Positions 24,326-50,351 of a DNA stretch of 64,000 bases are shown here, piece after piece. The stretch covers positions 1 through 64,000 of the forward strand of contig JANRLC010000048.1 of NCBI GenBank assembly GCA_033762955.1, read 5' to 3'. The DNA comes from Verrucomicrobiota bacterium. Its GTDB lineage: Bacteria; Verrucomicrobiota; Verrucomicrobiia; Opitutales; Oceanipulchritudinaceae. Position numbers and translations under genes: made by a program. Numbering within the stretch: the first letter of the stretch is position 1; each line of letters opens with the position of its first letter. A model generated the notes under the pieces. That model had not been told where the DNA came from and did no database searches. It worked only from the letters and a program-made list of their open reading frames with translations.

Positions 24326-24427
24326 GCCTAGCGTCAAAGATGAGCCACGATGCAACTTGGCGCGTTTCCTGACGCTGCAGGAATCGTGACAGGTCGTGTC
24401 GTTGGCTCTGGTGCCTTGTTGTTAGGC
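24326..24427 (-). other. integron attC site (long, lies inside the 3' end of the ORF 24334-24825)
   Basis: Top strand GCCTAGCGTCAAAGATGAGCCACG ... CGTTGGCTCTGGTGCCTTGTTGTTAGGC. Confidence 0.65.
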
Positions 24428-24825
24428 TGGATTTCTTCGAGCCTCTCCCAGCGCATTTCAAATTCGGGAATCATGTAGCTCTTCGGCTGAAGCCAGAATG
24501 AAACCCGCTCTTCCTTCACTCCGCGATGAGCTCTGGCTCTGACCTCCTCTGGCCTCAAAATGAAAATTCCAGGAGTGGCGTCTAAATTATTCACGATGAT
24601 CCAAAAGTCACCCATAACTTTATCGAGAGAATTTCCAAGCGGCACAGGACTCTTCTTGCTCAGTGCTTTCACTTGGATGCCGATGTAACGAGTGGCCGTT
24701 AGATCGTAGGCAATGATATCAATGCCCTTCGCATTTCGCGCGGTCGGCATGACATTCCAACCACGCTTTGACAACTCGTAGCACACGAAGTAAAGGCCTA
24801 CATTTCCTACGATCTGGGCGTTCAT
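24334..24825 (-). CDS. cassette ORF, Hjc/NucS-like PD-(D/E)xK nuclease-fold protein
   Basis: GNVGLYFVCYELSKRGWNVMPTARNAKGIDIIAYD ... IGIQVKAL fits the G..GE..V...L...G..V......DIIA ... QVK nuclease pattern. The C-terminal roughly 30 aa are translated through the attC. Confidence 0.5.
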   Translation of the reverse strand: MNAQIVGNVGLYFVCYELSKRGWNVMPTARNAKGIDIIAYDLTATRYIGIQVKALSKKSPVPLGNSLDKVMGDFWIIVNNLDATPGIFILRPEEVRARAHRGVKEERVSFWLQPKSYMIPEFEMRWERLEEIQPNNKAPEPTTRPVTIPAASGNAPSCIVAHL

Positions 24826-24831
24826 GATCTT

Positions 24832-24900
24832 GCCTAATGTGGAAGCTGAGGTGCGCTGCGAGCGTCAGCGAGTAGCGTCACCTTCAGCAACTTGTTAGCC
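24832..24900 (-). other. integron attC site
   Basis: Top strand GCCTAATGTGGAAGCTGAGGTGCGC ... CTTGTTAGCC. The stop codon TAA of the upstream cassette gene lies inside the R'' box GGCTAAC. Confidence 0.6.
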
Positions 24901-25389
24901 TAAATAATCAATCTTCAATGATCTCCTAAGCTTTTTCGCCGATTCGAGTGCGGTCCTCAAATTATCATCCATTGTATTCCCAACAAACTTTTCAATTAAT
25001 TCCAGTTGCTCATCTTTTGAATCAAGCACCAATCTAACAAGGGGATCCAACTCTCCTGCAACGGTATCAAATATTACTCCTTCCTTCCCCATCATTATTT
25101 TGTAATATAAATCTTCATTCTCTTGAAAGAGATTGATATCAAATCTCCCCTTGGCCCAATCAGAAACATGGCCTAGAAAACTATCTTGCTTAATATGATT
25201 TTCCAACTTCCCGGACAATCGGTTCACCTCTAAGGTATACTTGATGATGGGGTTTTTTATATTTACTATTTTTGACAGGAATAAAATCAATCCTTCCCAG
25301 TACTGATCATCCTCAGTGTTTATATATATGCAGATGTAAGATGGGCCATCCTTTGATATGATATTAGATTTGAGTATAGCTGTTTTCAT
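24895..25389 (-). CDS. cassette ORF, hypothetical protein (about 36% GC)
   Basis: 164-aa ORF bounded by attC sites on both sides. Confidence 0.5.
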   Translation of the reverse strand: MKTAILKSNIISKDGPSYICIYINTEDDQYWEGLILFLSKIVNIKNPIIKYTLEVNRLSGKLENHIKQDSFLGHVSDWAKGRFDINLFQENEDLYYKIMMGKEGVIFDTVAGELDPLVRLVLDSKDEQLELIEKFVGNTMDDNLRTALESAKKLRRSLKIDYLG

Positions 25390-25399
25390 AAATTGTCTG

Positions 25400-25464
25400 G
25401 CTAACGTAGAAGTGAGCGGCCTGCGCTGCTTTTCGCACAGGTCCGCTCTACTGCCGGGTTAGCC
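25400..25464 (-). other. integron attC site
   Basis: Top strand GGCTAACGTAGAAGTGAGCGGCC ... CTACTGCCGGGTTAGCC. The stop TAA is embedded in the R'' box. Confidence 0.6.
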
Positions 25465-26319
25465 ACGTTTTCGCTCAAGTATTTCATGGACGTCTTTGGC
25501 TAGCTGCCTATATGAGAGCGTTGCCATCTTCCTATCGCATAGTGCGACGACATGGCCCAGATCGTGCTCACCTTCAAACGGAAAGGAATCCGTGACGGCC
25601 GGGATATTTAGCGAGCCGATCCATTTACCTAGAATTCCAACGGAAATGACAATGTTAGATGGACCCAACCCCGCGATTACACACGAGCCCTTAATCAACT
25701 GACAAAAATGGCTCAACAATTCGCTCTCCTCTTTATCTGCACTTTCGGCTTGGGAAAATTCGTCATATCCTCGCAAACCGAAGTGTGCAAAGTCCTCGCG
25801 TTTTGATTCTGAGTTGAAGTTCATTAGTGCGCGCAGCTCGTTATGCTTGACATGAGTACGGAATAGATCGCCGTAGATGAAGTAACCAGCAGACAGCGCA
25901 ACCTTAGCAACGAAGCGTTTGCGGCCGTGAGCTTCAATATTAAATTGCGACGAAATCGTGTTTCCGCCGATTTCATGCGGCTCAAGGTGGCGCTTAGTCA
26001 TCGCATCCCAAATGAGCATGCCCTCTTTGCCACGCAAGGTAACTTGAATGGGCCGCTTTTCGTCGCCCAGATGCGACTTTTTCAATAACACCGTCGGCGG
26101 CGTGTTGCTGTGTCCCCTTGCGTCAAACTCACGACGGCGCATCAGCGTAAGAAAGTCGTTTGCCAACACTCCATCGATTCTTGAACCAACCTTCGCATTG
26201 AAGTCCTTCTCTACGGGAATACAGAACTGGTTTGATCCTCCGAGCGAAAGTGGAATGATGTGCTCGGAGTTCATTGCCTCTACAGGCAATTCAAGGTCTG
26301 TGTAAGGACACCACGGCAT
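25459..26319 (-). CDS. cassette ORF, HNH endonuclease-domain protein
   Basis: NSEHIIPLSLGGSN is an HNH motif near the N-terminus. The 286-aa protein has an uncharacterised C-terminal domain. Confidence 0.6.
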   Translation of the reverse strand: MPWCPYTDLELPVEAMNSEHIIPLSLGGSNQFCIPVEKDFNAKVGSRIDGVLANDFLTLMRRREFDARGHSNTPPTVLLKKSHLGDEKRPIQVTLRGKEGMLIWDAMTKRHLEPHEIGGNTISSQFNIEAHGRKRFVAKVALSAGYFIYGDLFRTHVKHNELRALMNFNSESKREDFAHFGLRGYDEFSQAESADKEESELLSHFCQLIKGSCVIAGLGPSNIVISVGILGKWIGSLNIPAVTDSFPFEGEHDLGHVVALCDRKMATLSYRQLAKDVHEILERKRG

Positions 26320-26321
26320 AG

Positions 26322-26395
26322 CGGCTAGCGTATGAGATCAGTCACGGCCCAGCAAGGCCGTTGGCTGTAGCGACTGGTTGGTCGGTTTGGTTTTC
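26322..26395 (-). other. integron attC site (boxes degenerate)
   Basis: Top strand TAGCGTATGAGATCAGTCACGGCCCAGCAAGGCCGTTGGCTGTAGCGACTGGTTGGTC is nearly identical to the attC at 49597-49657. Confidence 0.55.
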
Positions 26396-26406
26396 ATGGG
26401 GGATTC

Positions 26407-27123
26407 CTATGCGATGCGCTTCCACCGCTTGAACGCCGCTACATCATCGGAGGAAAGGTCAAACCACTCACCCTCACCTCGCTTGCTGGCAAAGCGTCTA
26501 TGCCAATAAGCCTCTACTCCTGCTGGATCATCGGTCTCGATGGTGTGAATGGTTGTCGGCGGGACAGGAATCTTTATCGCGAGCTGCCTCTCGCGACTTC
26601 CGACCGACACAGTCCGTCCAATCTTGTGGTGACGCCCGGATCGCATGAGATAAACAAAACCGGTTTCAACAGACCTCTCCTTGTCTGGAGCTGACGCCTC
26701 CTCCTTCAGCTCAGCCCGACATAGAGACAAAACGTCGTCGTACTCTGGATGACTCTCACAATACCGTACCACGCGACCAAGCAACGCGTCCTTCCCATCG
26801 CGGTAGAACACGGTCTGACTTGGAAACGTCTTATCCGTGCGAGACCGCAAAACAAACTCTCCTTTCACAGGAATACGCCCAAGCTCTCTCGCGAACGCGA
26901 TAAACTTCTCGACCAAAAAGTCTGCCGAATACGCGGCTTGCATTTGATTGCAGCTGAAGCCCGCTTCGACCAACGCATCGCCCCATCTAAGCCAATGACT
27001 GGGAAACCAATCATTGTGCCGAATGCCAGTCTTACGCTCGAACAAGAGTGTCCCGGGGGCTTTGCCGCCGTTCTCTTTCGCGATGCGACGGATTTCTTCG
27101 AGAACTCGTGCTTTTTCGATCAT
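26407..27123 (-). CDS. cassette ORF, T5orf172 (GIY-YIG-like) domain protein
   Basis: C-terminal half GFVYLMRSGRHHKIGRTVSVGSRERQL ... PAGVEAYWHRRFASKRGEGEWFDLS is the T5orf172/MUG113 signature. A GGAGG Shine-Dalgarno lies 7 nt upstream; the gene is translationally coupled to the 27142-27846 gene. Confidence 0.6.
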   Translation of the reverse strand: MIEKARVLEEIRRIAKENGGKAPGTLLFERKTGIRHNDWFPSHWLRWGDALVEAGFSCNQMQAAYSADFLVEKFIAFARELGRIPVKGEFVLRSRTDKTFPSQTVFYRDGKDALLGRVVRYCESHPEYDDVLSLCRAELKEEASAPDKERSVETGFVYLMRSGRHHKIGRTVSVGSRERQLAIKIPVPPTTIHTIETDDPAGVEAYWHRRFASKRGEGEWFDLSSDDVAAFKRWKRIA

Positions 27124-27141
27124 TGGTTAGCCTCCGTTTTC

Positions 27142-27846
27142 TTATTTGGGGTCACGCTTACCTGCTAAAATAGCGATTACATTAATGGCCGTAGTGGTGG
27201 CATCAACACATATTGCTGCACTTCTAAAATCCGCAGTTCGAGAGTGAGTAAGGGCATTCGCGATACGCAAGGATGCTTTGGTATAACGCCTGAGCTCCTC
27301 ATTCGCATCGCCCTTCATCTCAACGGCTATATACGATTCCAGCATTCTGTTTGCGTCCGTAGAACTGGGTTCGGTGCCATCAAGTGGAGGATGATTCGCT
27401 CTGATATATACGGCCTGCGCCAATGAAACTAATCCATCACGGCAAAGAAGTCCTACTGCCTGAAACTGCTCTTCATTCTCTGCCGACGCTAGACGATTCC
27501 TCATCTCGCCAACGGTTCTATCAACTCGCTCCCATCCGGTCAGCTGATATTCCTGCTCTTTTCCGGTCTGAATCAAATTTATTAATGGGGTAAATAGATT
27601 TGAGACAAAGCTTCTCCGGGATTGATAGCTTGGTAAATCACCCGAACTCCATCGGCCATACCAATCCCATAGACTGCCGTATGTAATAGGATTCGTGATT
27701 TTCCGAACCGCTAGAGCTGCTGAAATCTTAGCGTAAGTGCGCTGATACTGCTCATCGACTTCTTGGATTCGTGAGCCACCAGTAGAAACAGAGACCATGA
27801 GATCACGCATTTTATTAAGACCTTCAATCAACTCGGGATTATTCAT
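27142..27846 (-). CDS. first cassette ORF next to attI, hypothetical protein
   Basis: The 234-aa ORF starts about 6 bp from the attI junction. It shares a cassette (no attC between) with the T5orf172 gene. Confidence 0.55.
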   Translation of the reverse strand: MNNPELIEGLNKMRDLMVSVSTGGSRIQEVDEQYQRTYAKISAALAVRKITNPITYGSLWDWYGRWSSGDLPSYQSRRSFVSNLFTPLINLIQTGKEQEYQLTGWERVDRTVGEMRNRLASAENEEQFQAVGLLCRDGLVSLAQAVYIRANHPPLDGTEPSSTDANRMLESYIAVEMKGDANEELRRYTKASLRIANALTHSRTADFRSAAICVDATTTAINVIAILAGKRDPK

Positions 27847-27851
27847 ATTTT

Positions 27852-27990
27852 TGGCTATCAGTTTGATATATGGAAAGTTTTCCGTCCTATAGCAAGCCGT
27901 AGACGGAAACTTTATACATGTTATTGACTATAGAAACGGAATTCATGAAAAATGTGAAGCTTGCAGTCTGATTATCCGTCCTATTAGCTA
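27852..27990. promoter_or_regulatory. attI recombination site region, and probable Pc/Pint promoter region
   Basis: The intI 5' flank abuts the first cassette. It is about 85% identical to 50352-50495; similarity to that second copy stops exactly at the first-cassette boundary (27852 / 50352). Confidence 0.6.
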
Positions 27991-27995
27991 ATGAC

Positions 27996-28997
27996 ATGGA
28001 TAAAGTGGAAAAGAAGGCTGGGTTTCATCCTGATCCGGGGTTGCGGTTGATGGAGCAGGTGCGGGAGGGGTTGCGCTACTATCATTATGCTTACCGGACA
28101 GAGCAGATTTATTGCGAGTGGATTGACCGGTTTGTGAAGTTTTATCGGGATGAGCGGCATCCGCGAGAGATGGGGAGCCTGGAGGTGGAGCGGTTTCTCT
28201 CTCATCTGGCTTCGGTGGAGCAGGTTTCGGCTTCGACGCAGCGACAGGCTTTGAATGCCCTGGAGTTTTTGTATGACAGGGTACTTCTCCAGCCACTAGC
28301 CGGGGAAATTGCTCCCATCCGGGCCAGGCCGGGTCAGCGTCCGCCTGCGGTTTTGACCGTGGCGGAAACGGGCGCGTTGCTGGGGGCAATGAAGGGAACA
28401 CATGGGGTGATGGCGCGGTTGCTTTATGGGGCCGGGTTGCGCTTGATGGAGTGTGTCCGGCTGCGGATTAGGGATGTGGATTTTGGGCAGGGGCTGGTGT
28501 ATGTGCGCGATGGCAAGGGGGGAGGGGAGCGTACGGTGCCGCTGCCGAAGCGGTTGAAGCCGGCCTTGCTGGAGCACCTGCGACGGGTGCGGGCTTTGCA
28601 TGAGAGTGATCTGGCGGAGGGTTTCGGTGCGGTGTGGCTGCCGGAGGCTTTGTCGCGTAAATACCCGCAGGCTGAGCGTGAGCCGGGGTGGCAATATGTG
28701 TTCCCGGCCAAAAAGCGTTCCCTCGATCCGCGCAGTGGTCGGGAACAACGGCATCATGTCATGGAATCGGGGGTGCAAAAGGCGGTTAAGGTGGCGGTGG
28801 CCAGGGCGGGGATCACGAAAAAGGTGGGGTGCCACACTTTGCGTCATAGTTTCGCCACCCATCTGCTTGAAAGTGGGGTCAATATTCGTGTATTGCAGGA
28901 GTTGATGGGGCACAGGAATGTGAAAACTACCGAAATGTATACCCGTGTTGTGCTCGGTAATAAGCAGGGTATCACCAGCCCACTGGACAGGCTGTGA
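27996..28997 (+). CDS. intI: integron integrase (tyrosine recombinase IntI)
   Basis: Alignable by eye to IntI1: LRYYHYAYRTEQIYCEWIDRFVKFY; the IntI-specific insertion VWLPEALSRKYPQAEREPGWQYVFPAKKRSLDPRSGREQRHH; and catalytic HTLRHSFATHLL ... GH ... TEMYTRV (R-H-R-Y). Confidence 0.9.
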   Translation: MDKVEKKAGFHPDPGLRLMEQVREGLRYYHYAYRTEQIYCEWIDRFVKFYRDERHPREMGSLEVERFLSHLASVEQVSASTQRQALNALEFLYDRVLLQPLAGEIAPIRARPGQRPPAVLTVAETGALLGAMKGTHGVMARLLYGAGLRLMECVRLRIRDVDFGQGLVYVRDGKGGGERTVPLPKRLKPALLEHLRRVRALHESDLAEGFGAVWLPEALSRKYPQAEREPGWQYVFPAKKRSLDPRSGREQRHHVMESGVQKAVKVAVARAGITKKVGCHTLRHSFATHLLESGVNIRVLQELMGHRNVKTTEMYTRVVLGNKQGITSPLDRL

Positions 28998-28999
28998 GG

Positions 29000-29960
29000 G
29001 TGGGGTTGTGAATGGAGAATGGAAAATGGAGAGTGGAAAATGGGGATGGCGCAAGGCAGGAGGCAGGAGGCAGATTTAAGATTACAGATTTCAGATTTCA
29101 GATTCCAAATGGCGGAAGGGAGAAGGTAGTCGCTTCGCTTCGTGTGAATATCTGTCGCTGCGCTCGGTAACGGTGATAAAGTTGGCAGTTAGCAGTGTGC
29201 AGTTGGTAGTTTGCAGTGGGGAGCCGCTTCGCTCCGTGTTCGGTGGTCCGTGTTCGGTGGGCGACTAATGCAAGCTGCCGCCCGTGGTCGGGAGAGTGGT
29301 TCCGTGGACAACTTCCCGATTGCTGAAGGTGGATAAATGCTGTGTTTCCCGATGACACGGGAGGATGAGACTGCACTCCAGATAGGAAAACCAACCTTGG
29401 CAAGCGGAAATGACGTAGCGTAGGCACAAAGTAACAAAGGCACAGAGTCGGATAGGCAGGAGGCAGAAGGCAGTGGACAGTTTGCAGTTGGCAGTGGGGC
29501 CCCCCATTGCTTCCCCTTCGTCCCCTTCTTCCCATTTCCGCGAGTGGCGGCAGGGTCGCGGCGAGTGGCGGTGGGGTCTCAGGGAGTGGCGGCAACGGTT
29601 CCGCGAGTGGCGGCGGGTGTGCGCGAGTCGCGGCGGGGGCTCGGGAAGTGGCGGCAACGGTGGTACGCGTGACGGCAACGGTGGTGCGAGTGGCGGTAAC
29701 CTTGGTACGAGTGGCGGCAACGGTGGAGCGAGTGGCGGCAACGGTGGTGCGAGTGGCGGCAACCTTGGTACGAGTGACGGCAACGTCGGTACGAGTGGCG
29801 GCAACGGTGGTGCGAGTGGCGGTAACCTTGGTACGCGTGACGGCAACGGTGGTGCGAGTGGCGGCAACGGTTGAGGGAGCGGCGGCGGGGGTGTTGCGGG
29901 AGTCGCGGCGGGGGTTGCAGGGTGGGGCAGGGGTGAAATAGACCCATTTTGTCACAATTG
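29000..29960. repeat. composite repeat module: GGAGAATGG / GGCAGGAGGCAG / AGATTTCAGATT simple repeats, a 210-bp conserved unit (29263-29470), and a 21-nt tandem array (about 29500-29880)
   Basis: The 210-bp unit is about 88% identical to 50790-51000. The tandem unit GGTGGTGCGAGTGGCGGCAAC occurs about 17 times. A paralogous module lies at 50495-51520. Confidence 0.75.
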
Positions 29961-30015
29961 GGTTGCATAGGAGGGCTGGACAGGGGGTGGTTTGGGCTAT
30001 GGAATTGGGGAACTT

Positions 30016-32088
30016 ATGAAACATGATTTTAGTCCGGTAGCTCCGTTGGGTCGCTCAAACATTAGCCATCTGCGGCCTGCGGGTTTTGATACTTTCTGGT
30101 TCGGGGTGTGCTACTACCCGGAGCATTGGGACGCGGAGACGCGGGCTCTCGATGCGGAGCGGATGGCGGCAGCGGGGGTGAATGTAGTGCGGATGGGCGA
30201 GTTTGCGTGGGACTTGATGGAGCGGGTGGAGGGGGTGTATGACTTTAGTTTGTTTGACGAGACGATTGCGCATCTGGCCAGGCATGGGATTAAGACAATC
30301 TTCTGCACGCCGACGGCGGCTCCGCCGCGGTGGTTGACAGTACAGCATCCGGAGATACTGCGCCAGGACAGGCTGAATACGGAGCTTAAACATGGTTCGC
30401 GGCAGCATGCGGACTACAGTCACCCTACGTTCCGGGAGTATTCACGTCGGATCACGGAGGTGCTGGCTGAGCATTACAAGGATAATACAGCGGTGATTGG
30501 GTGGCAGACGGACAATGAGATTTACTGCCATTTCTCAGATGACCACAGCCCGGCGACGCGGGCGGCGTTTATCGCGTTTCTAAAGGAGAAGTATGCGGGC
30601 GACATTGTTGCGCTGAACCGGGCGTGGGGTACGGCTTTCTGGGCGCAGACTTACGGGAGTTTCGAGGAGATTGATACGCCGTATGAGAATCGACCGACGT
30701 ATCCGAACCCTTCGCAGCAACTGGACTATGCGCGGTTCCTGAGCGAGACGGTGGCGCGGTTCCAGCATGAGCAGATTGCGCTCTTGCGGGCGGCGAATGC
30801 GGGGTGGTTCATCACTCATAATGGGGTGATGAGCAAGACGGACTACCGGGGGCTGTTTACGCAGGACCTGGATGTGCTGGGGTATGATGTGTACCCGTTC
30901 TTCGACACGAATCCCACGTCCCGCCCGTGCAGCCACGCATTTGGGCTGGACCGTGTGCGGGCGTTTAGCGGGAACTTTATTGTGCCAGAGCACCAGGCTG
31001 CGGCGGGTGGACAGGCGCCGTACTTTCATAATGCGCCGGAGCCGGGGGAGATGCGCTTGTTTACGTACCGGAGCATCGCGCGCGGGGCGGATAGCGTGCT
31101 GTACTTCCGCTGGCGCACGTGCCGGTTTGGGGCGGAGATTTACTGGTGCGGGATTCTGGACCATGACAATGTGCCGAGGCGGCGCTACGCGGAGCTGAGC
31201 CAGATCGGCGGGGAACTGAAGCGCGTGGGTCCGGCCCTGCTGGGCACTTCTGTGCGCGTGGAGGTGGCGTTTGCGGAGGGGGACTATGCGGCGACAGAGG
31301 CGCACTTAACTTACCCACTCGGTCTACCCTCGGAGGGGACGGCGGCAGTCTGGAGCCATCGGTGGTTCTTCGAGCGGGGGTATGCGGTGGGTTGTGTACA
31401 CCCTGCGGATAACCTGGATGGTGTGAAGCTGTATATTATCCCCCATTGGACTGTGTTTGACCCGGCCTGGGTGCCTGCGCTGGAGCGATTTGTAGAGCGG
31501 GGTGGGGTACTGGTAATCGGTGCGAGGACGGCGTCGCGTACGTTAGATAATCAGGTAACTGCGGAGACGCTGCCGGGGTGCCTGGCGAAGCTGGCCGGAG
31601 TCACGGTGGAAGAGTATGGCCGGCAAAACAAGGGAGACCTGCGCCCACAGAAGCTGCAGCTCGGCGAAACTGAGGTGGAGAGCGCGGATTGGTACGAAGT
31701 GCTGGGCCTGCAAGGGGCGGAGGCGCTCGCAACCTGGACCACACGGCACCTGGTGGGCTTGCCTGCAATCTCGCACCGCAAGGTGGGGCGCGGGCATGTG
31801 CTCTATGTGGGGACGTATTTCTGTAACGGGGCGCTCTTCGATGCGCTCTGGCCCGTGGCTGGTAAACTGGCCGGTGTTTCCCCACAACTGGTGGAGCACC
31901 CGGCGGGGATTGAGGTAGTCGTCCGCGAAAAGGCGGGAGTGGAACTGTGGTTTATGCTGAATCGCAACGAGACGGCAACCCGTGTACCGCACCCACCGCT
32001 CGGACAGGACCTGGTGACGGGAACCACCGTGGATGGCCCCTGCGAGATAGAGGCGAGTGGCGTGCGAGTGGTGGTGCAAAGACGGTAG
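30016..32088 (+). CDS. GH42-family beta-galactosidase
   Basis: FWFGVCYYPEHW ... GEFAW ... WQTDNE matches the GH42 N-terminal TIM-barrel motifs; the protein is about 690 aa. Confidence 0.75.
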   Translation: MKHDFSPVAPLGRSNISHLRPAGFDTFWFGVCYYPEHWDAETRALDAERMAAAGVNVVRMGEFAWDLMERVEGVYDFSLFDETIAHLARHGIKTIFCTPTAAPPRWLTVQHPEILRQDRLNTELKHGSRQHADYSHPTFREYSRRITEVLAEHYKDNTAVIGWQTDNEIYCHFSDDHSPATRAAFIAFLKEKYAGDIVALNRAWGTAFWAQTYGSFEEIDTPYENRPTYPNPSQQLDYARFLSETVARFQHEQIALLRAANAGWFITHNGVMSKTDYRGLFTQDLDVLGYDVYPFFDTNPTSRPCSHAFGLDRVRAFSGNFIVPEHQAAAGGQAPYFHNAPEPGEMRLFTYRSIARGADSVLYFRWRTCRFGAEIYWCGILDHDNVPRRRYAELSQIGGELKRVGPALLGTSVRVEVAFAEGDYAATEAHLTYPLGLPSEGTAAVWSHRWFFERGYAVGCVHPADNLDGVKLYIIPHWTVFDPAWVPALERFVERGGVLVIGARTASRTLDNQVTAETLPGCLAKLAGVTVEEYGRQNKGDLRPQKLQLGETEVESADWYEVLGLQGAEALATWTTRHLVGLPAISHRKVGRGHVLYVGTYFCNGALFDALWPVAGKLAGVSPQLVEHPAGIEVVVREKAGVELWFMLNRNETATRVPHPPLGQDLVTGTTVDGPCEIEASGVRVVVQRR

Positions 32089-43124: not shown

Positions 43125-44684
43125 TTATGGATGTCGTGCAACCTTAGCACGGAGCATGTCCATGTGCATCTCAGCGCGCTTCTTCTGCCCTTCCTCTGTA
43201 ATGAGTGGATAGACCGCCTCAAGCCGCGCCAAAGCCTGTGAAGCAACTTCACCTTCAAGCTCCTCGGTTGACGTTGCTTCCAATGCTGTCATTACAAGCC
43301 ACGGCTCAGCTGAAGTGTAGAGCGGAGCTAAATCAGCGAACTTCGCCCCGATCATCCATAGCGTTTGGTGCTGAGTGTAAGCTTCCTGACTGTTCTTGGG
43401 TGGATGACTTGGTATGGCCTCTACTAGCCGCGGAATGCCTGGCCTGCCAAGCTGGCGAAGTTCGGATAGGACTTTCATACTTCGAGAATCATCCGACATC
43501 CCGGCCAAAGCGAACTCAGTCAACTGAGTAGCAATGTCATCAAGCTTCGCTTTTACTCTCTCCATGGCCAAACCCTGATCAGTCCTTTCTTCCAGCGGAA
43601 CCTTCGCCCAATTGCAGAACTGGGTAATTGCGTAGCTCTCTGAAGGAGGATTCTGTTTTCGAGCCAAATCCTTGGCGATTTGCCCGCGTACCGAACGGCA
43701 GGCGAGATCCAGTTCAGAGAGTATGCTTGAAATCCGGCTTAGCGCCTCGACGACGCCCGTTCGGTCCTCCGGTTTGCTGTGGTAAATCTCCAGAAGCTCG
43801 GGAATGAACTCAATCGCCTCTACGTTATAGCACAGTGATGAATAATCCAGCTCCGGCGGACGGTCTTTACGAAAGGTGTGGAATGCCTGCCAAATTCGCG
43901 TTTGTCTGGGCCCGGGATCGAGGGCTCCGTGGTCTGGCAAGATGAGTTCAATGCTGATCTTGGGCCTGTTTGGAATGACCTCGGAATATCCCTCGTTCAA
44001 TACCCGGCTCCCGATTGACCGCTGCCAACTGTGATTAAGCACCAGCTTCTCCGGTTGATCTTTCAATTCCCGAAAACTCAGATTCCAGAACGTTGGCTTG
44101 CGCTGCAAATCCCCGGGCGGATCAGACATCGGCTGAATTTCCAAGGCGACACTCTGGCTCGCACGCAACCGAAATCGGAATTTGCCTTGGGAATCACTGC
44201 TTGATGATCGCTTCTGCATACTCAGACCATTCTCGTGGAAGTACTCATTAATTCTGACTCCAGAGAGAATATTGCCCCTGATGTCGCGCAATTGAAGTTC
44301 GACTCGTGTTGAATTCACAAAGTCTATCAGCAAGGCGACCCCCAGCCATAGGATTACCGCGGGGATTACTGTTGAGAGTTGCCGCGCTTCTTTTCTCGGT
44401 CGGCAAAAGAATGTAGCTATCAGACCAAGGAGACAAATCGCGAGAGCCGGCAGCAGAATAATGGCCATCATTCCAGCAAACCCTGCGTCCGGTCCGCTCA
44501 TGCTCCCGATGTGGCTCAGAATCCTGAGGATCTTGAATGCCGCGTAAGCAAAGACTCCGGTGGTTGGAAACCATATAAAAACGACCCACCGACGGCTACG
44601 GAAAGCGAATGAAAGACTGAGCCCACAGATCAGGGCGAAGAGCCCCACCAATGCGGATGTGAGGGATAGCTGGGAGAAAATCAT
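43125..44684 (-). CDS. cassette ORF, large multi-TM membrane protein (about 519 aa), hypothetical
   Basis: Start chosen at MIFSQLS, 35 bp downstream of the R-prime box. Four N-terminal TM helices are followed by a soluble domain. Confidence 0.5.
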   Translation of the reverse strand: MIFSQLSLTSALVGLFALICGLSLSFAFRSRRWVVFIWFPTTGVFAYAAFKILRILSHIGSMSGPDAGFAGMMAIILLPALAICLLGLIATFFCRPRKEARQLSTVIPAVILWLGVALLIDFVNSTRVELQLRDIRGNILSGVRINEYFHENGLSMQKRSSSSDSQGKFRFRLRASQSVALEIQPMSDPPGDLQRKPTFWNLSFRELKDQPEKLVLNHSWQRSIGSRVLNEGYSEVIPNRPKISIELILPDHGALDPGPRQTRIWQAFHTFRKDRPPELDYSSLCYNVEAIEFIPELLEIYHSKPEDRTGVVEALSRISSILSELDLACRSVRGQIAKDLARKQNPPSESYAITQFCNWAKVPLEERTDQGLAMERVKAKLDDIATQLTEFALAGMSDDSRSMKVLSELRQLGRPGIPRLVEAIPSHPPKNSQEAYTQHQTLWMIGAKFADLAPLYTSAEPWLVMTALEATSTEELEGEVASQALARLEAVYPLITEEGQKKRAEMHMDMLRAKVARHP

Positions 44685-44718
44685 GACGGCTAGATGTTGG
44701 GGAAGGTGATTATGCGCG

Positions 44719-44809
44719 TGCCGAACGTCTAGCTCATCCACGGCGGGGATGGAAGCCCGAATTCAAACTGGAGCGTTACCCGCCGTTGGATGGAGCGTCT
44801 TGTTCGCCT
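44719..44809 (-). other. integron attC site
   Basis: Top strand GCCGAACGTCTAGCTCATCCACGG ... CGTTGGATGGAGCGTCTTGTTCGCC. Confidence 0.6.
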
Positions 44810-44826
44810 TTGGTTTATGAGTTTGT

Positions 44827-45405
44827 CTATGCTGGATGAGTAAGTCGTGTGATGATCTCTTCAACGTCACGGACACCAGCAATAGCTAAGAAACCGTGGT
44901 CAGTGGATTGTCTGCCACCATCACCATCACCCGCCCAAGTCCGCTCAAAAATGAGGTCTCCAGTCCCATCTGGCTTCTGAACCCGTCGGATGTCTTTGAG
45001 TCGGTCGGGATCAAATGAACGAATTGTCATGGAACCAAATACACCACCAGCTAGGACAATAGCTCGCTGATCCGTGATGACATAGGCAGTTCTTCGAGCC
45101 ATTCGTCGCATCCAGTATGGACTGGAAAGCATACCAAATCCGATGAGGACGAATGGCAGGCCGAACAGTGGGAAAATGCCAAAGCCCTGACTAAAGTCGG
45201 GCATCTTGAACCCGCTGGCTCCAGCAATCCAGAAAAGAGCAAACGCTGTCCAAGGTATGCCAAACAGCACAAGTCCGATACTACGCCGGGCAAAACAACC
45301 AGGAATGGGCTGTCCAGTCCATGTGACACGTTCTCCATTTCGCAGTTCAGCATCAATAAGACGAGAAACATCGTGCGGTAAATTATTTGTGTGGTGGAAT
45401 TGCAT
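44827..45405 (-). CDS. cassette ORF, membrane protein (2 TM plus a bPH-like domain), hypothetical
   Basis: 192-aa ORF starting 16 bp after the R-prime box. Confidence 0.5.
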   Translation of the reverse strand: MQFHHTNNLPHDVSRLIDAELRNGERVTWTGQPIPGCFARRSIGLVLFGIPWTAFALFWIAGASGFKMPDFSQGFGIFPLFGLPFVLIGFGMLSSPYWMRRMARRTAYVITDQRAIVLAGGVFGSMTIRSFDPDRLKDIRRVQKPDGTGDLIFERTWAGDGDGGRQSTDHGFLAIAGVRDVEEIITRLTHPA

Positions 45406-45420
45406 AGGGTTTCATTTTTT

Positions 45421-45487
45421 GCCGAACGGTAAAGATGAGCCACGAGGCATGACAGCGGTGGACGTTGGCTCTGGTGCCTGGTTCGGC
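45421..45487 (-). other. integron attC site (best-preserved exemplar)
   Basis: Top strand GCCGAACGGTAAAGATGAGCCACGAGGCATGACAGCGGTGGACGTTGGCTCTGGTGCCTGGTTCGGC. R''/R' are GCCGAAC/GTTCGGC. L''/L' are GAGCCA(A)CG / CGTGGCTC with one extrahelical base. Confidence 0.75.
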
Positions 45488-45488
45488 C

Positions 45489-45851
45489 TCATGTGATAAC
45501 CGAAGATACCGCGACGCGACAATTCTCGGCCAAACCGTAAACCTTGTCGGCTTCGTAGTCGAATAGCTCGTAGTGCACCGATTCCCAGCCTCTCGAGCTA
45601 ATCTTATCTACGTCGAAACCGATGAGCTGGTGAATGGATGCAATGCGGAAATCGCGAACATTGCCGAAAGTGACATCGATCTGCCCCTTCTTTCCTTTGA
45701 GCACAAAGGAGACAATCTTTTCGAATCGCTCGCGATCTTCCTCGTAATATGTGTCGATAGACAGGCACTTAAGATCCGTAAAATCACCGAATGCGCAGTC
45801 GCCATACTGTGCTTTGACATCGGCGTAACCTGGAAGATCAGCGAGCGACAT
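45489..45851 (-). CDS. cassette ORF, hypothetical protein (120 aa)
   Basis: The stop codon directly abuts the R'' box. Confidence 0.5.
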   Translation of the reverse strand: MSLADLPGYADVKAQYGDCAFGDFTDLKCLSIDTYYEEDRERFEKIVSFVLKGKKGQIDVTFGNVRDFRIASIHQLIGFDVDKISSRGWESVHYELFDYEADKVYGLAENCRVAVSSVIT

Positions 45852-45859
45852 TGTATTTT

Positions 45860-45958
45860 CCGAACGTTATAGATCAGCCACGACTATGGCTGGCGCACAG
45901 CCTGCGCAAGCAGGATGCGTGACTGACATAGTCGTTGTGCTGTAGCGCCTGATTAGGC
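45860..45958 (-). other. integron attC site
   Basis: Top strand CCGAACGTTATAGATCAGCCACG ... GTCGTTGTGCTGTAGCGCCTGATTAGGC. Confidence 0.65.
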
Positions 45959-45964
45959 TCATGT

Positions 45965-46663
45965 TTATTGTATTTCTTTGCAGATAAAACTCCGTACGAC
46001 CGGTTGCGCTAGAATCATAGCTAATTCATCGTGCAAAACTTTTTCCTTGTTTCCGCCTGGAGGTGATGGATGGCTAAACTTAATAACTAAACGCTTGCGG
46101 TGAATGAATATTCGGTCTGCTGGACACGTGAACTCAGTGCTGGGATGGTATGCTGCGTGATAAGACCAAAAGGTGTTAGCGCACAAGATCACGTCGGGAC
46201 AAATAAGATCAATTTGCTCAGTGAGAAACTCTTTATCTCTGATTGCCGCTTGCTGTATCAGCTTCTGTGAGGAGGTAGTCTCTCCTAGCTCCTTGGAAAC
46301 ATTTACATAGGCGATATCTGACAACTGTATGGTTCCGGCATACCTTGAGTCAAATGCATCATACTCAGCTTGAGAACTTGATGCGTTACCGGTGTAAACC
46401 GATTTAATCAGATCCCTCCATCGAACAATATTGCGCCATATAATTGGGAATTTCCCGTTTCGCGCAATTATTTCTATTGGGCTCCCAGATATGTTATACC
46501 AATTCGCTTTTTTGTGTGATTCCTTCATCAGGAACAAAATCCTAGGCTTTGCGGTCATCCACGCTTCAGGGCTTAGGATGCCGTCCCGCACAAAGGGATT
46601 ATACCCCCGAGTGTGAGCCCACCTGTCTTGTAGTTCGGTTAACTTTTCGATTTCGATGTCCAT
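45965..46663 (-). CDS. cassette ORF, hypothetical protein (232 aa)
   Basis: Bounded by attC sites on both sides. Confidence 0.5.
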   Translation of the reverse strand: MDIEIEKLTELQDRWAHTRGYNPFVRDGILSPEAWMTAKPRILFLMKESHKKANWYNISGSPIEIIARNGKFPIIWRNIVRWRDLIKSVYTGNASSSQAEYDAFDSRYAGTIQLSDIAYVNVSKELGETTSSQKLIQQAAIRDKEFLTEQIDLICPDVILCANTFWSYHAAYHPSTEFTCPADRIFIHRKRLVIKFSHPSPPGGNKEKVLHDELAMILAQPVVRSFICKEIQ

Positions 46664-46669
46664 GTTATT

Positions 46670-46770
46670 TCTACCTTACGTCATAGATGAGCCACGAGCG
46701 TGCTCGACGCCAAAGCCTGCCCCGCAGCCGACGTGCCAAGCACGCTCGTTGGCTCTAGCGAATGATCAGG
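46670..46770 (-). other. integron attC site (R-prime box degenerate)
   Basis: Top strand CCTTACGTCATAGATGAGCCACGAGCGTGCTCG ... CAAGCACGCTCGTTGGCTCTAGCGAATGATCAGGC. Confidence 0.55.
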
Positions 46771-46771
46771 C

Positions 46772-47455: not shown

Positions 47456-47474
47456 GAATTGATTGATTAATTCT

Positions 47475-47639
47475 GCCGAACGCATAGGTCAACGACGGGA
47501 GCCAGCCTCCGATGACGTTCGATGTGTCTCTGAGCGAATCGGCTGGCTCACGTTCACTGGACCGTCTGGTTCGCCTTCTTCTTCATTTTCGGTCCCATGA
47601 CGCGAAACAGGCTTTGTCTTCAATCCAGCCTTGTTCGGA
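47475..47639 (-). other. integron attC site, unusually long or compound
   Basis: Top strand GCCGAACGCATAGGTCAACGACGGGAGCCAGCC ... GGCTGGCTCACG ... GGTTCGCC ... TTGTTCGGA. Confidence 0.45.
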
Positions 47640-47642
47640 TTT

Positions 47643-47897: not shown

Positions 47898-47902
47898 TCT
47901 AT

Positions 47903-47990
47903 CGGCGAACGTAAAAGTGCGCTACGGATGAAACTAAGCCTAAGACGTTTGCTCCCCCGACTTGCTCTACAATGCGGGGCAACTTAGAAT
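47903..47990 (-). other. integron attC site (degenerate)
   Basis: Top strand CGGCGAACGTAAAAGTGCGCTACGG ... the far box is weak (AACTTAGAA). Confidence 0.4.
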
Positions 47991-48625
47991 CTAGATATCA
48001 AACCTAAAAAATAGGAAATAATAGCAGTAATAATAACTAGGATAATGTTATCCTTATTACGATACCAGAAACTTTTATACTTATGTTTTCTGTTTAAGAA
48101 GATTTTTGATGAACCAATAAATGAGTGTCCAAGAAATAAGATATAAAATATGACCAGTGATAGCAGTAAACCAGCTGGATACTTAATGAAATTATTCAGG
48201 GGAAGAAATGGGGTAAGATATACTATCAGAAAAATAGACATACCACATATCATTCCGAGAATACCATTCCACCAATAGCCAGTAGGATGCCATGAGTACC
48301 ATTTAACATGTGAGCTTAATAAATCCTTTACGAAGGGCGCATCTTTTTCGTTTTGATAGGGACGGCTAATTGTAACACCTCTTGGCTCAATATCTATGCG
48401 AATTTCATCAAAGGAGTTCTTGTACCTGAAAATAAGATTAAGGGAAGAAATGTGATCCCTTGATACGTGCTCCAATAATTCTTCTAATGACTCGTACTCC
48501 GTATTGTCATACATCACACTCAATTCTGAGTCATCAGGAAGTTGTCGGATTAGATTATCTAAATCATCAAGGTATAATCTAATTGGAGGTATCCTAATAG
48601 GGGCAGTGCTTCTGATTATTTTCAT
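47984..48625 (-). CDS. cassette ORF, membrane protein (about 214 aa), hypothetical, about 33% GC
   Basis: Start moved to MKIIRSTAPIRIPP, 6 bp downstream of the R-prime box. The longer ORF-track start lies inside the attC. Confidence 0.45.
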   Translation of the reverse strand: MKIIRSTAPIRIPPIRLYLDDLDNLIRQLPDDSELSVMYDNTEYESLEELLEHVSRDHISSLNLIFRYKNSFDEIRIDIEPRGVTISRPYQNEKDAPFVKDLLSSHVKWYSWHPTGYWWNGILGMICGMSIFLIVYLTPFLPLNNFIKYPAGLLLSLVIFYILFLGHSFIGSSKIFLNRKHKYKSFWYRNKDNIILVIITAIISYFLGLISRF

Positions 48626-48630
48626 TTTAT

Positions 48631-48750
48631 TAGAACGTACAAGATTCAAGATGAGCCAAGTGTATGCTTGGCGCGAATCGTGTCCTACAAAAGGGAAGAA
48701 AAGCACGATTCGTGACAATCATACGCATTGGTTCCATCGCCATGTTAGCC
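48631..48750 (-). other. integron attC site (long)
   Basis: Top strand TAGAACGTACAAGATTCAAGATGAGCCAAG ... CATGTTAGCC directly followed by the stop TAA of the upstream gene. Confidence 0.5.
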
Positions 48751-49587
48751 TTAGTTTCGTTTTATTTTATGCACTCCATCAGGTGCTTGAATCTGATTAT
48801 CTGTCTGAACTTCGATCAGTTGTAAATCTGTAACTACGCTTTGGTTGTATCCAAATTTTAGTTCAACATATTTATGATTTCCGTCGGAATGTTCATCTAG
48901 GCCCCATGCTCTCTTAATGACCAATCTGGTTTCTCTTTCATATGAATATTTGTGTGGCAGGTATAGCCCGCAAATGGAGGATGCGTCCTCCCAAAAAAAC
49001 TCTTTATTTAAACTATTTTTGGTCCAGTCCTGGACTTCTTTAAAGAAATCAGCCCATTTATCTATACCGTTTCCGTAGGTAATGCGCCGAAGGCATCCCG
49101 ACTGAACTGTCAATCTGAATCTAAACCTAAACCCATTACCTTTAGCGAATACAGTCCAAAAATTATGTTCTTCATTTGGTGTGAGATCAGTGTCTGTCAT
49201 CGATGTGTAGTAAAATCCATCGGCTATAGATTGAACATATCGAGGCCTCTGGGAGGCCTCATCTATTCCGAGAGGATACTTGTAGTCAAATTTCTCAAGA
49301 AAAGCCCGTATCTCATCCTCTTGGATTCTTTTTTCAACTGAATATAGCCTTAATCGACTGGTGGTTAAAATACTTTCACCGCTCACCTTATTCGTGTAAT
49401 GGTAGAACTCGCTGTCGTGTATCGGAGGGCAAATTTGATTGGTTAATTGCTTGGATATGCGCCCACCTTTGATCGAGTCGATTACCACGCGCTCAAGAAA
49501 GTTGAAGTCGTCTTTGGTAGCTTGAATTCCGAATTCGTGTTTGGTGAAAATATCATTCAACCCCTGGATGTATTTATCGTATTCCAT
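48751..49587 (-). CDS. cassette ORF, hypothetical protein (278 aa, low GC)
   Basis: Bounded by attC sites on both sides. Confidence 0.5.
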   Translation of the reverse strand: MEYDKYIQGLNDIFTKHEFGIQATKDDFNFLERVVIDSIKGGRISKQLTNQICPPIHDSEFYHYTNKVSGESILTTSRLRLYSVEKRIQEDEIRAFLEKFDYKYPLGIDEASQRPRYVQSIADGFYYTSMTDTDLTPNEEHNFWTVFAKGNGFRFRFRLTVQSGCLRRITYGNGIDKWADFFKEVQDWTKNSLNKEFFWEDASSICGLYLPHKYSYERETRLVIKRAWGLDEHSDGNHKYVELKFGYNQSVVTDLQLIEVQTDNQIQAPDGVHKIKRN

Positions 49588-49596
49588 TGTATTTCT

Positions 49597-49750: not shown

Positions 49751-49990
49751 TCACAGGCGCGCTTTCACTCTCTGATCATCGCGAGCGCGGGGAAAACTCT
49801 TCACAACTTCGAAGGCAATCCATTCGTGCGGCTCGCCCTCAACATGCGCGCCGTCGATAGGAATCAAGCCTTCGCTTTTCGACATCGCACCGGACTTAAT
49901 TTGCTCCGCAAGCGCGATGATGTCTTTCTGCTCCCCCGCGACTGTGACGCCGGGAGATGGTCCGCCTTCTACTTTCACGAGGAGCTTCAT
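49751..49990 (-). CDS. cassette ORF, small hypothetical protein (about 79 aa)
   Basis: Overlaps the upstream ORF by 29 nt in the ORF track; the start is moved to MKLLVKVEGG. Confidence 0.4.
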   Translation of the reverse strand: MKLLVKVEGGPSPGVTVAGEQKDIIALAEQIKSGAMSKSEGLIPIDGAHVEGEPHEWIAFEVVKSFPRARDDQRVKARL

Positions 49991-50012
49991 TCTTTGGCTC
50001 TCTAGTGCCTGG

Positions 50013-50345
50013 TTAGCCGGTCTTGAAGCGATCCAAAACATGTTTTTGAATGGCAGATAAAATCAGCATCGGCATAGATCCGACAACAGTCTGCACGAAA
50101 AGCATCTTATTGAAGCTGAGACGCTGCGCAGTGACGTCGTCCATAAACCAAAGAGTCACCAACAGCGAGACAATCGCCGAAATAGCTAATCTCGCGAGAA
50201 ACCATCCATATCGTCCGATTTGCTCTTCCTTGGAGTACTTAACGACGGGCACTGCTTTCTTACGTCGGGCTAGAGGAAGCATCAGCGGCAAGAAGCCGCC
50301 AAGTAATCCAAATAAGATCGCACTTATAAAGAGTTTCGATTCCAT
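50013..50345 (-). CDS. first cassette ORF next to the attI remnant; small membrane protein (110 aa)
   Basis: Three predicted TM helices; starts 7 bp from the attI-cassette junction. Confidence 0.45.
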   Translation of the reverse strand: MESKLFISAILFGLLGGFLPLMLPLARRKKAVPVVKYSKEEQIGRYGWFLARLAISAIVSLLVTLWFMDDVTAQRLSFNKMLFVQTVVGSMPMLILSAIQKHVLDRFKTG

Positions 50346-50351
50346 AGTAAA

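What the first reader, a model, noticed from the sequence alone, without database searches (positions are those of the whole stretch)
26407..27846. Two-gene cassette adjacent to attI as a candidate new defence or toxin module
The cassette closest to Pc (and so probably the most expressed) carries two coupled genes with no attC between them; a GGAGG Shine-Dalgarno lies 7 nt before the second ATG. The first gene encodes a 234-aa protein with no recognisable domain. The second encodes a 238-aa protein whose C-terminal half has the T5orf172/MUG113 GIY-YIG-like nuclease signature (GFVYLMRSGRHHKIGRT ... GEWFDLS). T5orf172 domains recur in anti-phage and abortive-infection contexts. An uncharacterised partner placed in an integron cassette is the kind of locus where undescribed defence systems turn up.
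Basis: inference. Interest (0 to 1): 0.75.

Follow-up and report, generated by a model that had tools for sequence, protein, structure and literature searches.

The report
Two unrelated integron cassettes fused together
The two genes next to the integron's capture site are two independent single-gene cassettes (a HEPN-fold protein and a GIY-YIG/T5orf172 nuclease) joined when the recombination site between them was lost, so they are not a co-evolved two-gene defence system, though each alone remains a reasonable but untested defence or toxin candidate.

Summary
An intact integron integrase (27996-28997, +) faces a minus-strand cassette array. The first unit holds two ORFs, geneA (27846..27142, 234 aa) and geneB (27123..26407, 238 aa). 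They are 18 nt apart, GGAGG lies 7 nt before geneB's ATG, and no attC lies between them.

The "two-gene module" reading is not supported:
- geneB is not next to geneA in any of 57 genomes that carry a geneA homolog.
- geneA is not next to geneB in any of 81 metagenome loci that carry a geneB homolog.
- Neither gene has any conserved neighbour.
- Elsewhere each gene is a single-gene cassette with its own attC.

A 97%-identical geneA cassette (L058) matches the window through GGAGGCTAACCAA and then continues as an attC; the window runs straight into geneB. Only the R'' core plus 3 nt of geneA's attC survives, and the GGAGG is native to cassette A. This is a fused cassette, a known but rare structure (blaGES-1/aacA4).

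The parts
27996..28997 (+). Integron integrase intI (333 aa), divergent from the cassette array
   Evidence: TIGR02249 integrase_gron E=8e-125, profile positions 2-315 of 315; Pfam Phage_integrase plus Phage_int_SAM_4
27853..27995 (-). attI region. The attI/cassette junction reads CAAACTGATAGCCAAAAATATG; the core is GATAGCC (27859..27853) where GTTAGCC is expected.
   Evidence: Read directly. Unfused geneA cassettes start GTTAGCCAAAA... (L058, L001, L142). An 81-83% identical attI-like paralog exists at window ~50340-50500.
26329..27858 (-). Fused (compound) cassette of about 1530 bp, holding geneA, an attC remnant, geneB and one attC
   Evidence: Boundaries inferred from the attI junction and from the R' core of the attC after geneB
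27142..27846 (-). geneA: 234-aa all-alpha protein with an N-terminal helical domain and a C-terminal HEPN-fold domain. It belongs to a large unannotated family.
27123..27132 (-). Remnant of geneA's attC: the R'' (1L) core GGCTAAC plus CAA. The last A is the A of geneB's ATG.
   Evidence: L058 (geneA 97% identical at the protein level) reads ...GAAAACGGAGGCTAACCAAGCGCTACAG... (attC continues). The window reads ...GAAAACGGAGGCTAACCAATGATCG.... L001 and L142 carry full attCs at this place.
27131..27135 (-). GGAGG, 7 nt upstream of geneB's ATG. It is a pre-existing part of cassette A's 3' end that now sits where a Shine-Dalgarno sequence would.
   Evidence: GGAGG is present in the unfused L058 cassette; the 88% relatives L001 and L142 have GAGG.
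26407..27123 (-). geneB: 238-aa protein with an N-terminal helical HTH-like domain (homing-endonuclease-associated repeat) and a C-terminal T5orf172/MUG113 GIY-YIG-type nuclease domain
26323..26383 (-). attC of the fused cassette (61 nt). R'' is GACCAAC (26383..26377). R' is GCTAGCC (26329..26323), i.e. GCT where GTT is expected.
   Evidence: attC covariance model R1: 17.6 bits, fourth-best site in the window, not in the training set. About 45 nt are 91% identical to the attC at 49597-49657. The fold is only weakly better than shuffles, z=-1.45.
25459..26319 (-). Next cassette: 286-aa protein with an N-terminal HNH-like motif, followed by a canonical attC at 25399-25464
   Evidence: HNH_5 E=1.3e-4, below the Pfam cut-off. 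attC fold z=-5.0. R1 hit 20.5 bits.

Best explanation
The segment is a fused integron cassette. Two unrelated single-gene cassettes once lay side by side at the attI-proximal end of a chromosomal integron in a Verrucomicrobiota bacterium.

A deletion removed all but the first 10 nt (the R''/1L core plus CAA) of cassette A's attC, together with geneB's short leader. I infer the deletion was probably microhomology- or hairpin-mediated. It left geneB's ATG 7 nt downstream of a GGAGG that already sat at the end of cassette A.

Consequences (inferred, by analogy with blaGES-1/aacA4):
- The two genes are transcribed on one mRNA from the cassette promoter.
- GeneB is no longer separated from the promoter by an attC hairpin.
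- The pair can be excised only as one unit, if at all. Both flanking core triplets deviate from GTT (GAT at attI, GCT in the 3' attC).

The two proteins are most likely functionally independent.
- GeneA is a member of a large, unannotated, horizontally spread family. It has a C-terminal HEPN fold and a conserved H201-x-R203 motif in place of the canonical Rx4-6H. My best guess is a stand-alone RNA- or nucleotide-targeting toxin or abortive-infection-type effector.
- GeneB is a helix-turn-helix-type DNA-binding module joined to a T5orf172 GIY-YIG nuclease domain with an intact catalytic set. My best guess is a sequence- or structure-directed DNA endonuclease acting in defence or as a selfish nuclease.
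For: Shown:
1. No co-occurrence. GeneB is within 10 kb of geneA in 0 of 57 genome loci spanning more than 10 phyla. GeneA is next to geneB in 0 of 81 loci. Neither gene has a conserved neighbour.
2. Each gene is elsewhere a single-gene cassette. Model R1 finds an attC starting within about 35 nt of geneA's stop in L001, L003, L016, L020, L045, L046, L057 and L142. It finds the same after geneB's stop in 14 loci, and attCs on both sides of geneB in at least 8 loci. 30 of 32 and 52 of 53 attC hits lie on the gene's strand.
3. Breakpoint. L058 (geneA 97% at the protein level; 91% DNA identity) is identical to the window through GGAGGCTAACCAA and then continues as an attC, whereas the window continues with geneB's coding sequence.
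4. The junction is reproduced in two other run assemblies at 100% identity.
5. A real attC follows geneB.
6. Fused cassettes with the first attC reduced to the 6-bp 1L core are described. They are co-transcribed and excised as a unit (PMC4670013).
7. GeneA has a HEPN fold. GeneB has GIY-YIG/T5orf172 plus HNH_repeat.

Inferred: the deletion mechanism. CAA microhomology is suggested by geneB leaders such as ...AGCATCAATGA in L072, L073 and L082. Co-transcription, the effect on translation, and both protein functions are also inferred.
Against: - P0122, a geneB homolog at 90% identity on a 996-nt JGI contig, has a same-strand gene ending 22 nt upstream. No DNA was available. If that upstream gene is geneA, the fusion is older and has been maintained, which would hint at selection on the pair.
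- Lack of conservation does not prove lack of interaction in this host.
- The attC after geneB folds only weakly (z=-1.45) and scores modestly (17.6 bits, E=0.29).
- My attC model is home-made and has low sensitivity.
- No expression data exist, and no promoter was identified.
- GeneA lacks the Rx4-6H motif that defines catalytic HEPN domains, so an RNase role is uncertain.
Confidence: 0.85

Rival explanations
1. A genuine two-component defence or toxin system. GeneA would be a sensor, regulator or antitoxin and geneB the nuclease effector, co-evolved and translationally coupled.
For: The genes are tightly spaced (18 nt) on the same strand with GGAGG at the right distance. Both have folds common in conflict systems: HEPN and GIY-YIG. 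Two-gene defence cassettes exist in integrons (10.1101/2024.07.02.601719). The gene upstream of P0122 is unresolved.
Against: Adjacency is 0 of 57 and 0 of 81 in relatives. Each gene stands alone with its own attC in many lineages. The GGAGG and the 10 nt after it are inherited from the unfused cassette A.
Confidence: 0.07
2. GeneB is a mobile homing-type endonuclease gene that inserted itself into the start of cassette A's attC. On this view the attC downstream of geneB is really cassette A's own attC.
For: T5orf172 proteins with a terminal DNA-binding domain are typical free-standing homing endonucleases in phages (PMC10448857). The left junction GGCTAAC|CAA and the right-hand attC start GACCAAC|CAG both have AAC-CA. 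The 5' part of the attC after geneB (GACCAACCAGTCGCTACAG) resembles L058's attC (GGCTAACCAAGCGCTACAG).
Against: That 5' motif is generic for attCs of this array and host type, for example 49597-49657. GeneB homologs are usually ordinary attC-bounded cassettes. No target-site duplication or homing-site evidence was found.
Confidence: 0.06
3. The junction is an assembly chimera of a metagenome-assembled genome.
For: The window comes from a MAG: P0121 is named 'MAG... Verrucomicrobiota bacterium'. Integron arrays are repeat-rich.
Against: Two Logan contigs from different sequencing runs (DRR729085, DRR729083) carry exactly the same intI-attI-geneA-geneB(-cassette 3) sequence at 100% identity. The junction is not inside a long repeat.
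Confidence: 0.02

Closest known systems
Fused gene cassettes of class 1 integrons, e.g. blaGES-1/aacA4 (PMC4670013)
   Same: Two complete ORFs lie between consecutive recombination sites. The first attC is reduced to its 1L/R'' core (6 bp there; 7+3 nt here). In the described case the pair is co-transcribed and excised only as a unit, and loss of the hairpin is expected to help translation of the second gene.
   Different: This one is in a chromosomal integron of an uncultured Verrucomicrobiota bacterium and carries genes of unknown function, not resistance genes. Transcription and excision have not been tested. Both flanking core triplets are non-canonical (GAT, GCT).
Phage-defence integron cassettes (BRiCs; defence systems of sedentary chromosomal integrons), 10.1101/2024.07.02.601719 and 10.1101/2024.07.02.601686
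   Same: Small, streamlined, mostly single-gene cassettes encoding nuclease- or HEPN-type proteins. Homologs also occur outside integrons. The neighbouring cassettes here are nuclease-like too (HNH-like, Mrr-like).
   Different: No homology to any tested system was found. PADLOC gives nothing for geneA and only a weak domain-level hit (PDC-S57, E=2.4e-4) for geneB. No phenotype is known.
T5orf172/MUG113 subfamily of GIY-YIG nucleases (phage homing endonucleases; ICP1 Odn; PLE CapR), PMC10448857, PMC8263062, PMC8096241
   Same: GeneB has a T5orf172 domain above the Pfam cut-offs, conserved Y...KIG...R...E residues, and the usual layout of a DNA-binding module at one end and the nuclease at the other.
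   Different: The DNA-binding part is an HNH_repeat/HTH-like helical domain, and no CapR-type CxxC...CxC zinc-finger motif is evident in the sequence. The gene is bacterial and cassette-borne, not phage-borne. Nuclease activity and target are untested.
HEPN superfamily (MNT-HEPN toxins, Csm6, LsoA/RnlA, AbiA C-terminal domain, sacsin HEPN)
   Different: The Rx4-6H motif is absent. The conserved motif is H201-x-R203(-x4-R208), with A196/N197 upstream. There is an extra N-terminal helical domain and no MNT or other partner gene. There is no sequence-level match to any Pfam HEPN family.

Membership tests
Integron gene cassette | Located in an array next to an integron integrase gene and attI, in the cassette orientation | tested here: met
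   intI matches TIGR02249 at E=8e-125. The array lies on the opposite strand and starts about 135 nt from the intI ATG.
Integron gene cassette | Ends in an attC (imperfect inverted repeat with R''/L''...L'/R' and a GTT core) | tested here: inconclusive
   An attC-like site lies at 26323-26383: R1 gives 17.6 bits, and about 45 nt are 91% identical to another attC in the window. However, R' reads GCTAGCC (not GTT...), R''/R' pair poorly, and the fold z is only -1.45. IntegronFinder was not available.
Fused (compound) cassette | Two complete ORFs between one pair of recombination sites, with the first attC partly or wholly lost | tested here: met
   A 10-nt remnant is identical to the start of the attC in L058. 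There is no hairpin and no R1 hit between the genes.
Fused (compound) cassette | Each ORF exists elsewhere as an independent cassette with its own attC | tested here: met
   GeneA: L001, L003, L016, L020, L045, L046, L057, L058, L142. GeneB: L060, L061, L082, L090, L112, L126, L139 and others.
Fused (compound) cassette | Co-transcription and excision as one unit | not testable with these tools
   Needs RT-PCR or Northern blot, and inverse PCR for circular forms.
Multi-gene defence or toxin-antitoxin system | Conserved co-occurrence and gene order of the components across lineages | tested here: not met
   0 of 57 geneA loci have geneB. 0 of 81 geneB loci have geneA adjacent. No conserved neighbour for either.
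GIY-YIG superfamily, T5orf172/MUG113 subfamily (geneB) | Profile match above the curated cut-off | tested here: met
   MUG113 scores 48 bits (cut-off 22.3). T5orf172 scores 27.1 bits (cut-off 20).
GIY-YIG superfamily, T5orf172/MUG113 subfamily (geneB) | Conserved catalytic residues (Tyr of GIY, the YIG/KIG element, Arg, metal-binding Glu) | tested here: met
   Y158 (nearly invariant), K167-I168-G169, R177 and E219 (invariant) in 103 homologs. Their assignment to catalytic roles is by analogy and was not tested.
GIY-YIG superfamily, T5orf172/MUG113 subfamily (geneB) | GIY-YIG alpha/beta fold | tested here: inconclusive
   [not shown]
HEPN superfamily (geneA) | Four-helix up-down HEPN fold | tested here: met
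   [not shown]
HEPN superfamily (geneA) | Rx4-6H catalytic motif | tested here: not met
   Consensus ...LANALQHRRTATFR...: A196 and N197 occupy the R/N positions. The conserved residues are H201 and R203.
Known anti-phage systems (PADLOC-DB 2.0) | Significant full-length match to a system protein model | tested here: not met
   GeneA has no hit at E<=1. GeneB hits only PDC-S57 at E=2.4e-4, over the nuclease domain (profile positions 21-87 of 212).

The most novel reading that the evidence does not exclude
GeneA would represent a large, unannotated family of stand-alone HEPN-fold proteins: at least 1465 clusters at 50% identity in more than 10 phyla, often carried as integron cassettes, and sometimes carrying variable N-terminal extensions that could be sensor domains. 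The family would have a non-canonical HxR active site and would be a new single-gene abortive-infection or anti-phage effector. In this host the fusion would have been kept because placing the GIY-YIG nuclease geneB directly behind it, without an attC hairpin, gives a combined RNA- and DNA-targeting defence cassette that moves as one unit.
Probability: 0.2. Interest if true: 0.55.

Novelty: new member of a known kind. Interest (0 to 1): 0.3.

Why it matters
The result removes a false lead. The locus should not be cloned and tested as a two-component system; the informative constructs are each gene alone.

It documents a fused cassette in an environmental chromosomal integron. The breakpoint lies at the same place (the 1L/R'' core) as in the clinical blaGES-1/aacA4 fusion. 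This is a small data point on how integrons can turn independent cassettes into operon-like units.

It also flags two widespread cassette-borne families as candidates for single-gene defence or toxin screens. These are a HEPN-fold family without the Rx4-6H motif and an HNH_repeat+T5orf172 nuclease family. The work is incremental, because integrons are already established as reservoirs of defence genes.

Tried and rejected
- Strict RYYYAAC...GTTRRRY regular expression plus a folding threshold: it found no attC at all, because the local cores are GGCTAAC/GTTAGCC.
- Relaxed regular expression plus folding heuristics: too noisy in GC-rich coding DNA. It also had about 7-8% false positives and missed known sites. 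I replaced it with covariance model R1.
- RNAalifold on the arm alignment predicted no consensus structure. I supplied a hand-derived structure after checking it: 64% of cells paired, against at most 43% for slid controls.
- MAFFT on full-length attCs misaligned the right arms. I used 26+26-nt arm concatenations instead.
- The inverted-repeat finder did not pick out attCs.
- The last protein search, with geneA's C-terminal 62 aa, aimed to identify the gene upstream of P0122. It returned only P0391, a frameshifted geneA remnant that is not followed by geneB. P0122's neighbour stays unknown, and DNA for that contig was unavailable.
- The afdb50 fold library was unavailable.
- A profile search of geneA against PDB sequences gave nothing.
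- A Pfam scan of 10 long-form relatives and of 100 diverse relatives gave no consistent domain.
- The promoter scan found no sigma-70-like site on the cassette strand.
- Toxin-antitoxin reading rejected: there is no co-occurrence.

Full report
**Anatomy**

The window carries an integron. The ORF at 27996-28997 (+) matches the integron-integrase subfamily model TIGR02249 over its full length (E=8e-125). Small ORFs on the opposite strand run leftwards from it.

- The first ORF, geneA (27846..27142, 234 aa), starts about 150 nt from the intI ATG.
- The second, geneB (27123..26407, 238 aa), starts 18 nt after geneA's stop.
- On the minus strand the spacer reads TAAGAAAACGGAGGCTAACCAATG, so GGAGG lies exactly 7 nt before the ATG.
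- Neither the spacer nor the first 140 nt of geneB folds better than shuffled sequence (z 0.14 and 0.30).
- An attC covariance model built here finds nothing there.

The junction is not a MAG artefact, because two contigs assembled from other sequencing runs (L140, L141) are 100% identical across intI-attI-geneA-geneB. They come from the same population, so they confirm the sequence but not its age.

**Are the two genes a pair?**

Both proteins belong to large families of strikingly constant length: 1496 and 1590 homologs in the clustered protein collection.

I fetched 57 genome loci encoding geneA relatives. They span Verrucomicrobiota, Acidobacteriota, Planctomycetota, Alpha-, Beta- and Gammaproteobacteria, Nitrospirota, Desulfobacterota, Chloroflexota, Actinomycetota, Omnitrophota and others. 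GeneB is found in none of them within 10 kb. Clustering all ORFs within 4 kb shows no conserved neighbour.

In the other direction, I examined 81 loci encoding geneB relatives, taken from 529 matches in metagenomes. None has geneA next to it, and 44 of them have at least 750 nt upstream. Again there is no conserved neighbour. The defining property of a multi-gene system, conserved co-occurrence, was tested and not met.

**What each gene is elsewhere**

In many lineages each gene is the only gene of an ordinary cassette.

- In L001 and L142 (geneA 88% identical), the gene is preceded by ...CGTTAGCCAAAAGTTATCATG. About 10 nt after the stop it is followed by a full attC, GGCTAAC...GTTAGGC.
- I built a small attC covariance model (R1) from the two arms of 24 attCs. 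I first checked the hand-drawn pairing: 64% of cells paired against at most 43% for slid controls.
- On the loci, 30 of 32 hits (geneA set) and 52 of 53 hits (geneB set) lie on the same strand as the gene. Chance matches would not show this bias.
- R1 places an attC within about 35 nt of geneA's stop in eight loci, within about 35 nt of geneB's stop in fourteen, and on both sides of geneB in at least eight.
- Roughly a quarter of the homologs of each gene sit in attC arrays. This is a lower bound, given the model's low sensitivity. The rest lie in other contexts.
- For geneA those other contexts mix housekeeping genes with defence genes: retron-type reverse transcriptases, type I and type IV restriction components, Mrr nucleases and MADS components.

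**The breakpoint**

L058 carries a geneA that is 97% identical at the protein level (91% at the DNA level).

- Upstream it reads GAACGTTAGCCAAAAATATG. The window reads AACTGATAGCCAAAAATATG.
- Downstream it reads AAATAAGAAAACGGAGGCTAACCAAGCGCTACAGAGAAC..., which is an attC starting at GGCTAAC.
- The window is identical through GGAGGCTAACCAA and then continues TGATCGAAAAAG, which is geneB.

Three conclusions follow.

1. The GGAGG is part of cassette A's own 3' end. It did not evolve as a ribosome-binding site for geneB.
2. Only the R'' (1L) core plus three bases of geneA's attC survive.
3. GeneB kept its full, conserved N-terminus, MIEKARVLEE....

Several geneB cassettes have leaders ending ...CATCAATGA (L072, L073, L082). 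A deletion between two CAA triplets that removed the attC hairpin is therefore a plausible mechanism. That is inference only.

The structure matches the 'fused cassette' described in class 1 integrons. In blaGES-1/aacA4 the first attC is reduced to the 6 bp of the 1L core, the two genes are transcribed as one unit, and they are excised only together (PMC4670013).

**The 3' end and mobility**

After geneB lies a 61-nt attC-like site at 26383..26323.

- R1 scores it at 17.6 bits, the fourth-best site in the window. It was not in the training set, although a close paralog was.
- About 45 nt of it are 91% identical to the attC at 49597-49657.
- Its R' core reads GCTAGCC, and the attI junction reads GATAGCC. 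Relatives have GTTAGCC at both places.

If the conserved GTT triplet is needed for strand exchange, which is established knowledge of integron recombination, this compound cassette may be poorly mobile or fixed. I did not test this.

**What the proteins look like**

*GeneA*
- There is no significant hit in Pfam, NCBIfam or PADLOC, and only chance-level PHROG hits. A Pfam scan of 100 diverse relatives shows no consistent family.
- An AlphaFold2 model (pLDDT 87.5) is all-helical with two halves.
- The canonical Rx4-6H motif is absent. At the equivalent place, just before the last helix, the family conserves H201 (invariant) and R203, often followed by F207-R208.
- A profile search of 1.84 billion representatives finds 1465 clusters. 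Many are 330-357 aa, with unrelated N-terminal extensions of 100-120 aa that have no Pfam match.

*GeneB*
- The C-terminal domain is T5orf172/MUG113, above the Pfam cut-offs. A homing-endonuclease-associated repeat lies in the N-terminal half.
- The GIY-YIG-type residues Y158 (nearly invariant), K167-I168-G169, R177 and E219 (invariant) are conserved in 103 homologs.
- The layout, with a DNA-binding module at one end and the nuclease at the other, is that of T5orf172 homing endonucleases (PMC10448857).
- PADLOC gives only a weak domain-level hit to the untested candidate PDC-S57.

**Mechanism, with confidence**

- Shown: the anatomy, the lack of co-occurrence, the independent existence of both cassettes, and the breakpoint.
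- Inferred with high confidence (about 0.85): the unit arose by loss of the attC between two adjacent cassettes, and the genes are not a co-evolved system.
- Inferred by analogy: co-transcription, better translation of geneB without the hairpin, and movement as one unit or not at all.
- Speculative: geneA as a stand-alone HEPN-type RNA- or nucleotide-directed effector (about 0.35), and geneB as an active DNA endonuclease (about 0.6) acting in defence or selfishly. The array context fits a defence-rich integron, as reported for chromosomal and mobile integrons. The next cassettes are an HNH-like protein and an Mrr-like protein, and a geneA relative sits next to an Mrr restriction enzyme cassette.

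**What remains open**

The one observation that could revive a functional link is P0122, a geneB homolog at 90% identity. Its contig has a same-strand gene ending 22 nt upstream. No DNA was available, and my attempt to find that fragment by protein search failed.

**Verdict**

The interpretation as a two-gene module is not supported. The locus is a new example of a known kind of structure, built from two widespread families of unknown function. Interest is modest.

Noticed in passing
window ~43690-50500 (minus strand): There is a second attI-like region, 81-83% identical to the intI-linked attI, at ~50340-50500. No integrase ORF lies beside it. To its left are small minus-strand ORFs (50013..50345, 49751..50041, 48751..49587, 47984..48718) and attC-like sites at 49597-49657, 47475-47575, 45421-45487, 44720-44808 and possibly 43690-43765. 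This looks like an integrase-less attI plus cassette array about 22 kb from the integron.
   Followed up: partly
window 27853-27859 and 26323-26329: Both core sites flanking the fused cassette deviate from the conserved GTT triplet. The attI junction reads GATAGCC and the 3' attC R' reads GCTAGCC, whereas relatives have GTTAGCC. This may mean the unit is no longer excisable.
   Followed up: partly
window 24334-26319: The following cassettes also look nuclease-like. The 286-aa protein (25459..26319) has an N-terminal HNH motif (HNH_5, E=1.3e-4, below cut-off). The 163-aa protein (24334..24825) weakly matches Mrr_cat_2 and phrog_5018. The array may be a small defence island.
   Followed up: no
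P0245, P0256, P0262 and many others: Many geneA relatives are 330-357 aa. They carry mutually unrelated N-terminal extensions of 100-120 aa with no Pfam match. A few have C-terminal extensions instead (P0244, P0251). The pattern is a conserved core with variable add-on domains.
   Followed up: partly
L144-L151 (JGI metagenome contigs): A geneA copy with about 87% identity in its C-terminal half is broken by frameshifts in its N-terminal half, and only a 96-aa ORF (P0391) is called. It recurs on 10 contigs from different samples, next to FGE-sulfatase genes. It appears to be a decaying cassette.
   Followed up: partly
[not shown]
   Followed up: no
L090:919-1269: In one attC array that carries a geneB homolog, a distant geneA-like stretch (25% identity over aa 110-224) lies about 3 kb upstream, separated by other cassettes. 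The two are not adjacent.
   Followed up: no
P0122 (JGI 3300071358, 996-nt contig): The closest diverged geneB homolog (90% identity) is preceded by a same-strand gene that ends 22 nt upstream, which is too short a gap for an attC. The identity of that gene could not be determined.
   Followed up: partly
window ~29100-30020: Immediately beyond intI lies a G+C-rich stretch. ORFs in several of its frames encode short repeated peptide units (e.g. ...ATRTTVAATRTKV..., ...GGNGGASGGNLGTS...), which indicates a tandem DNA repeat.
   Followed up: no
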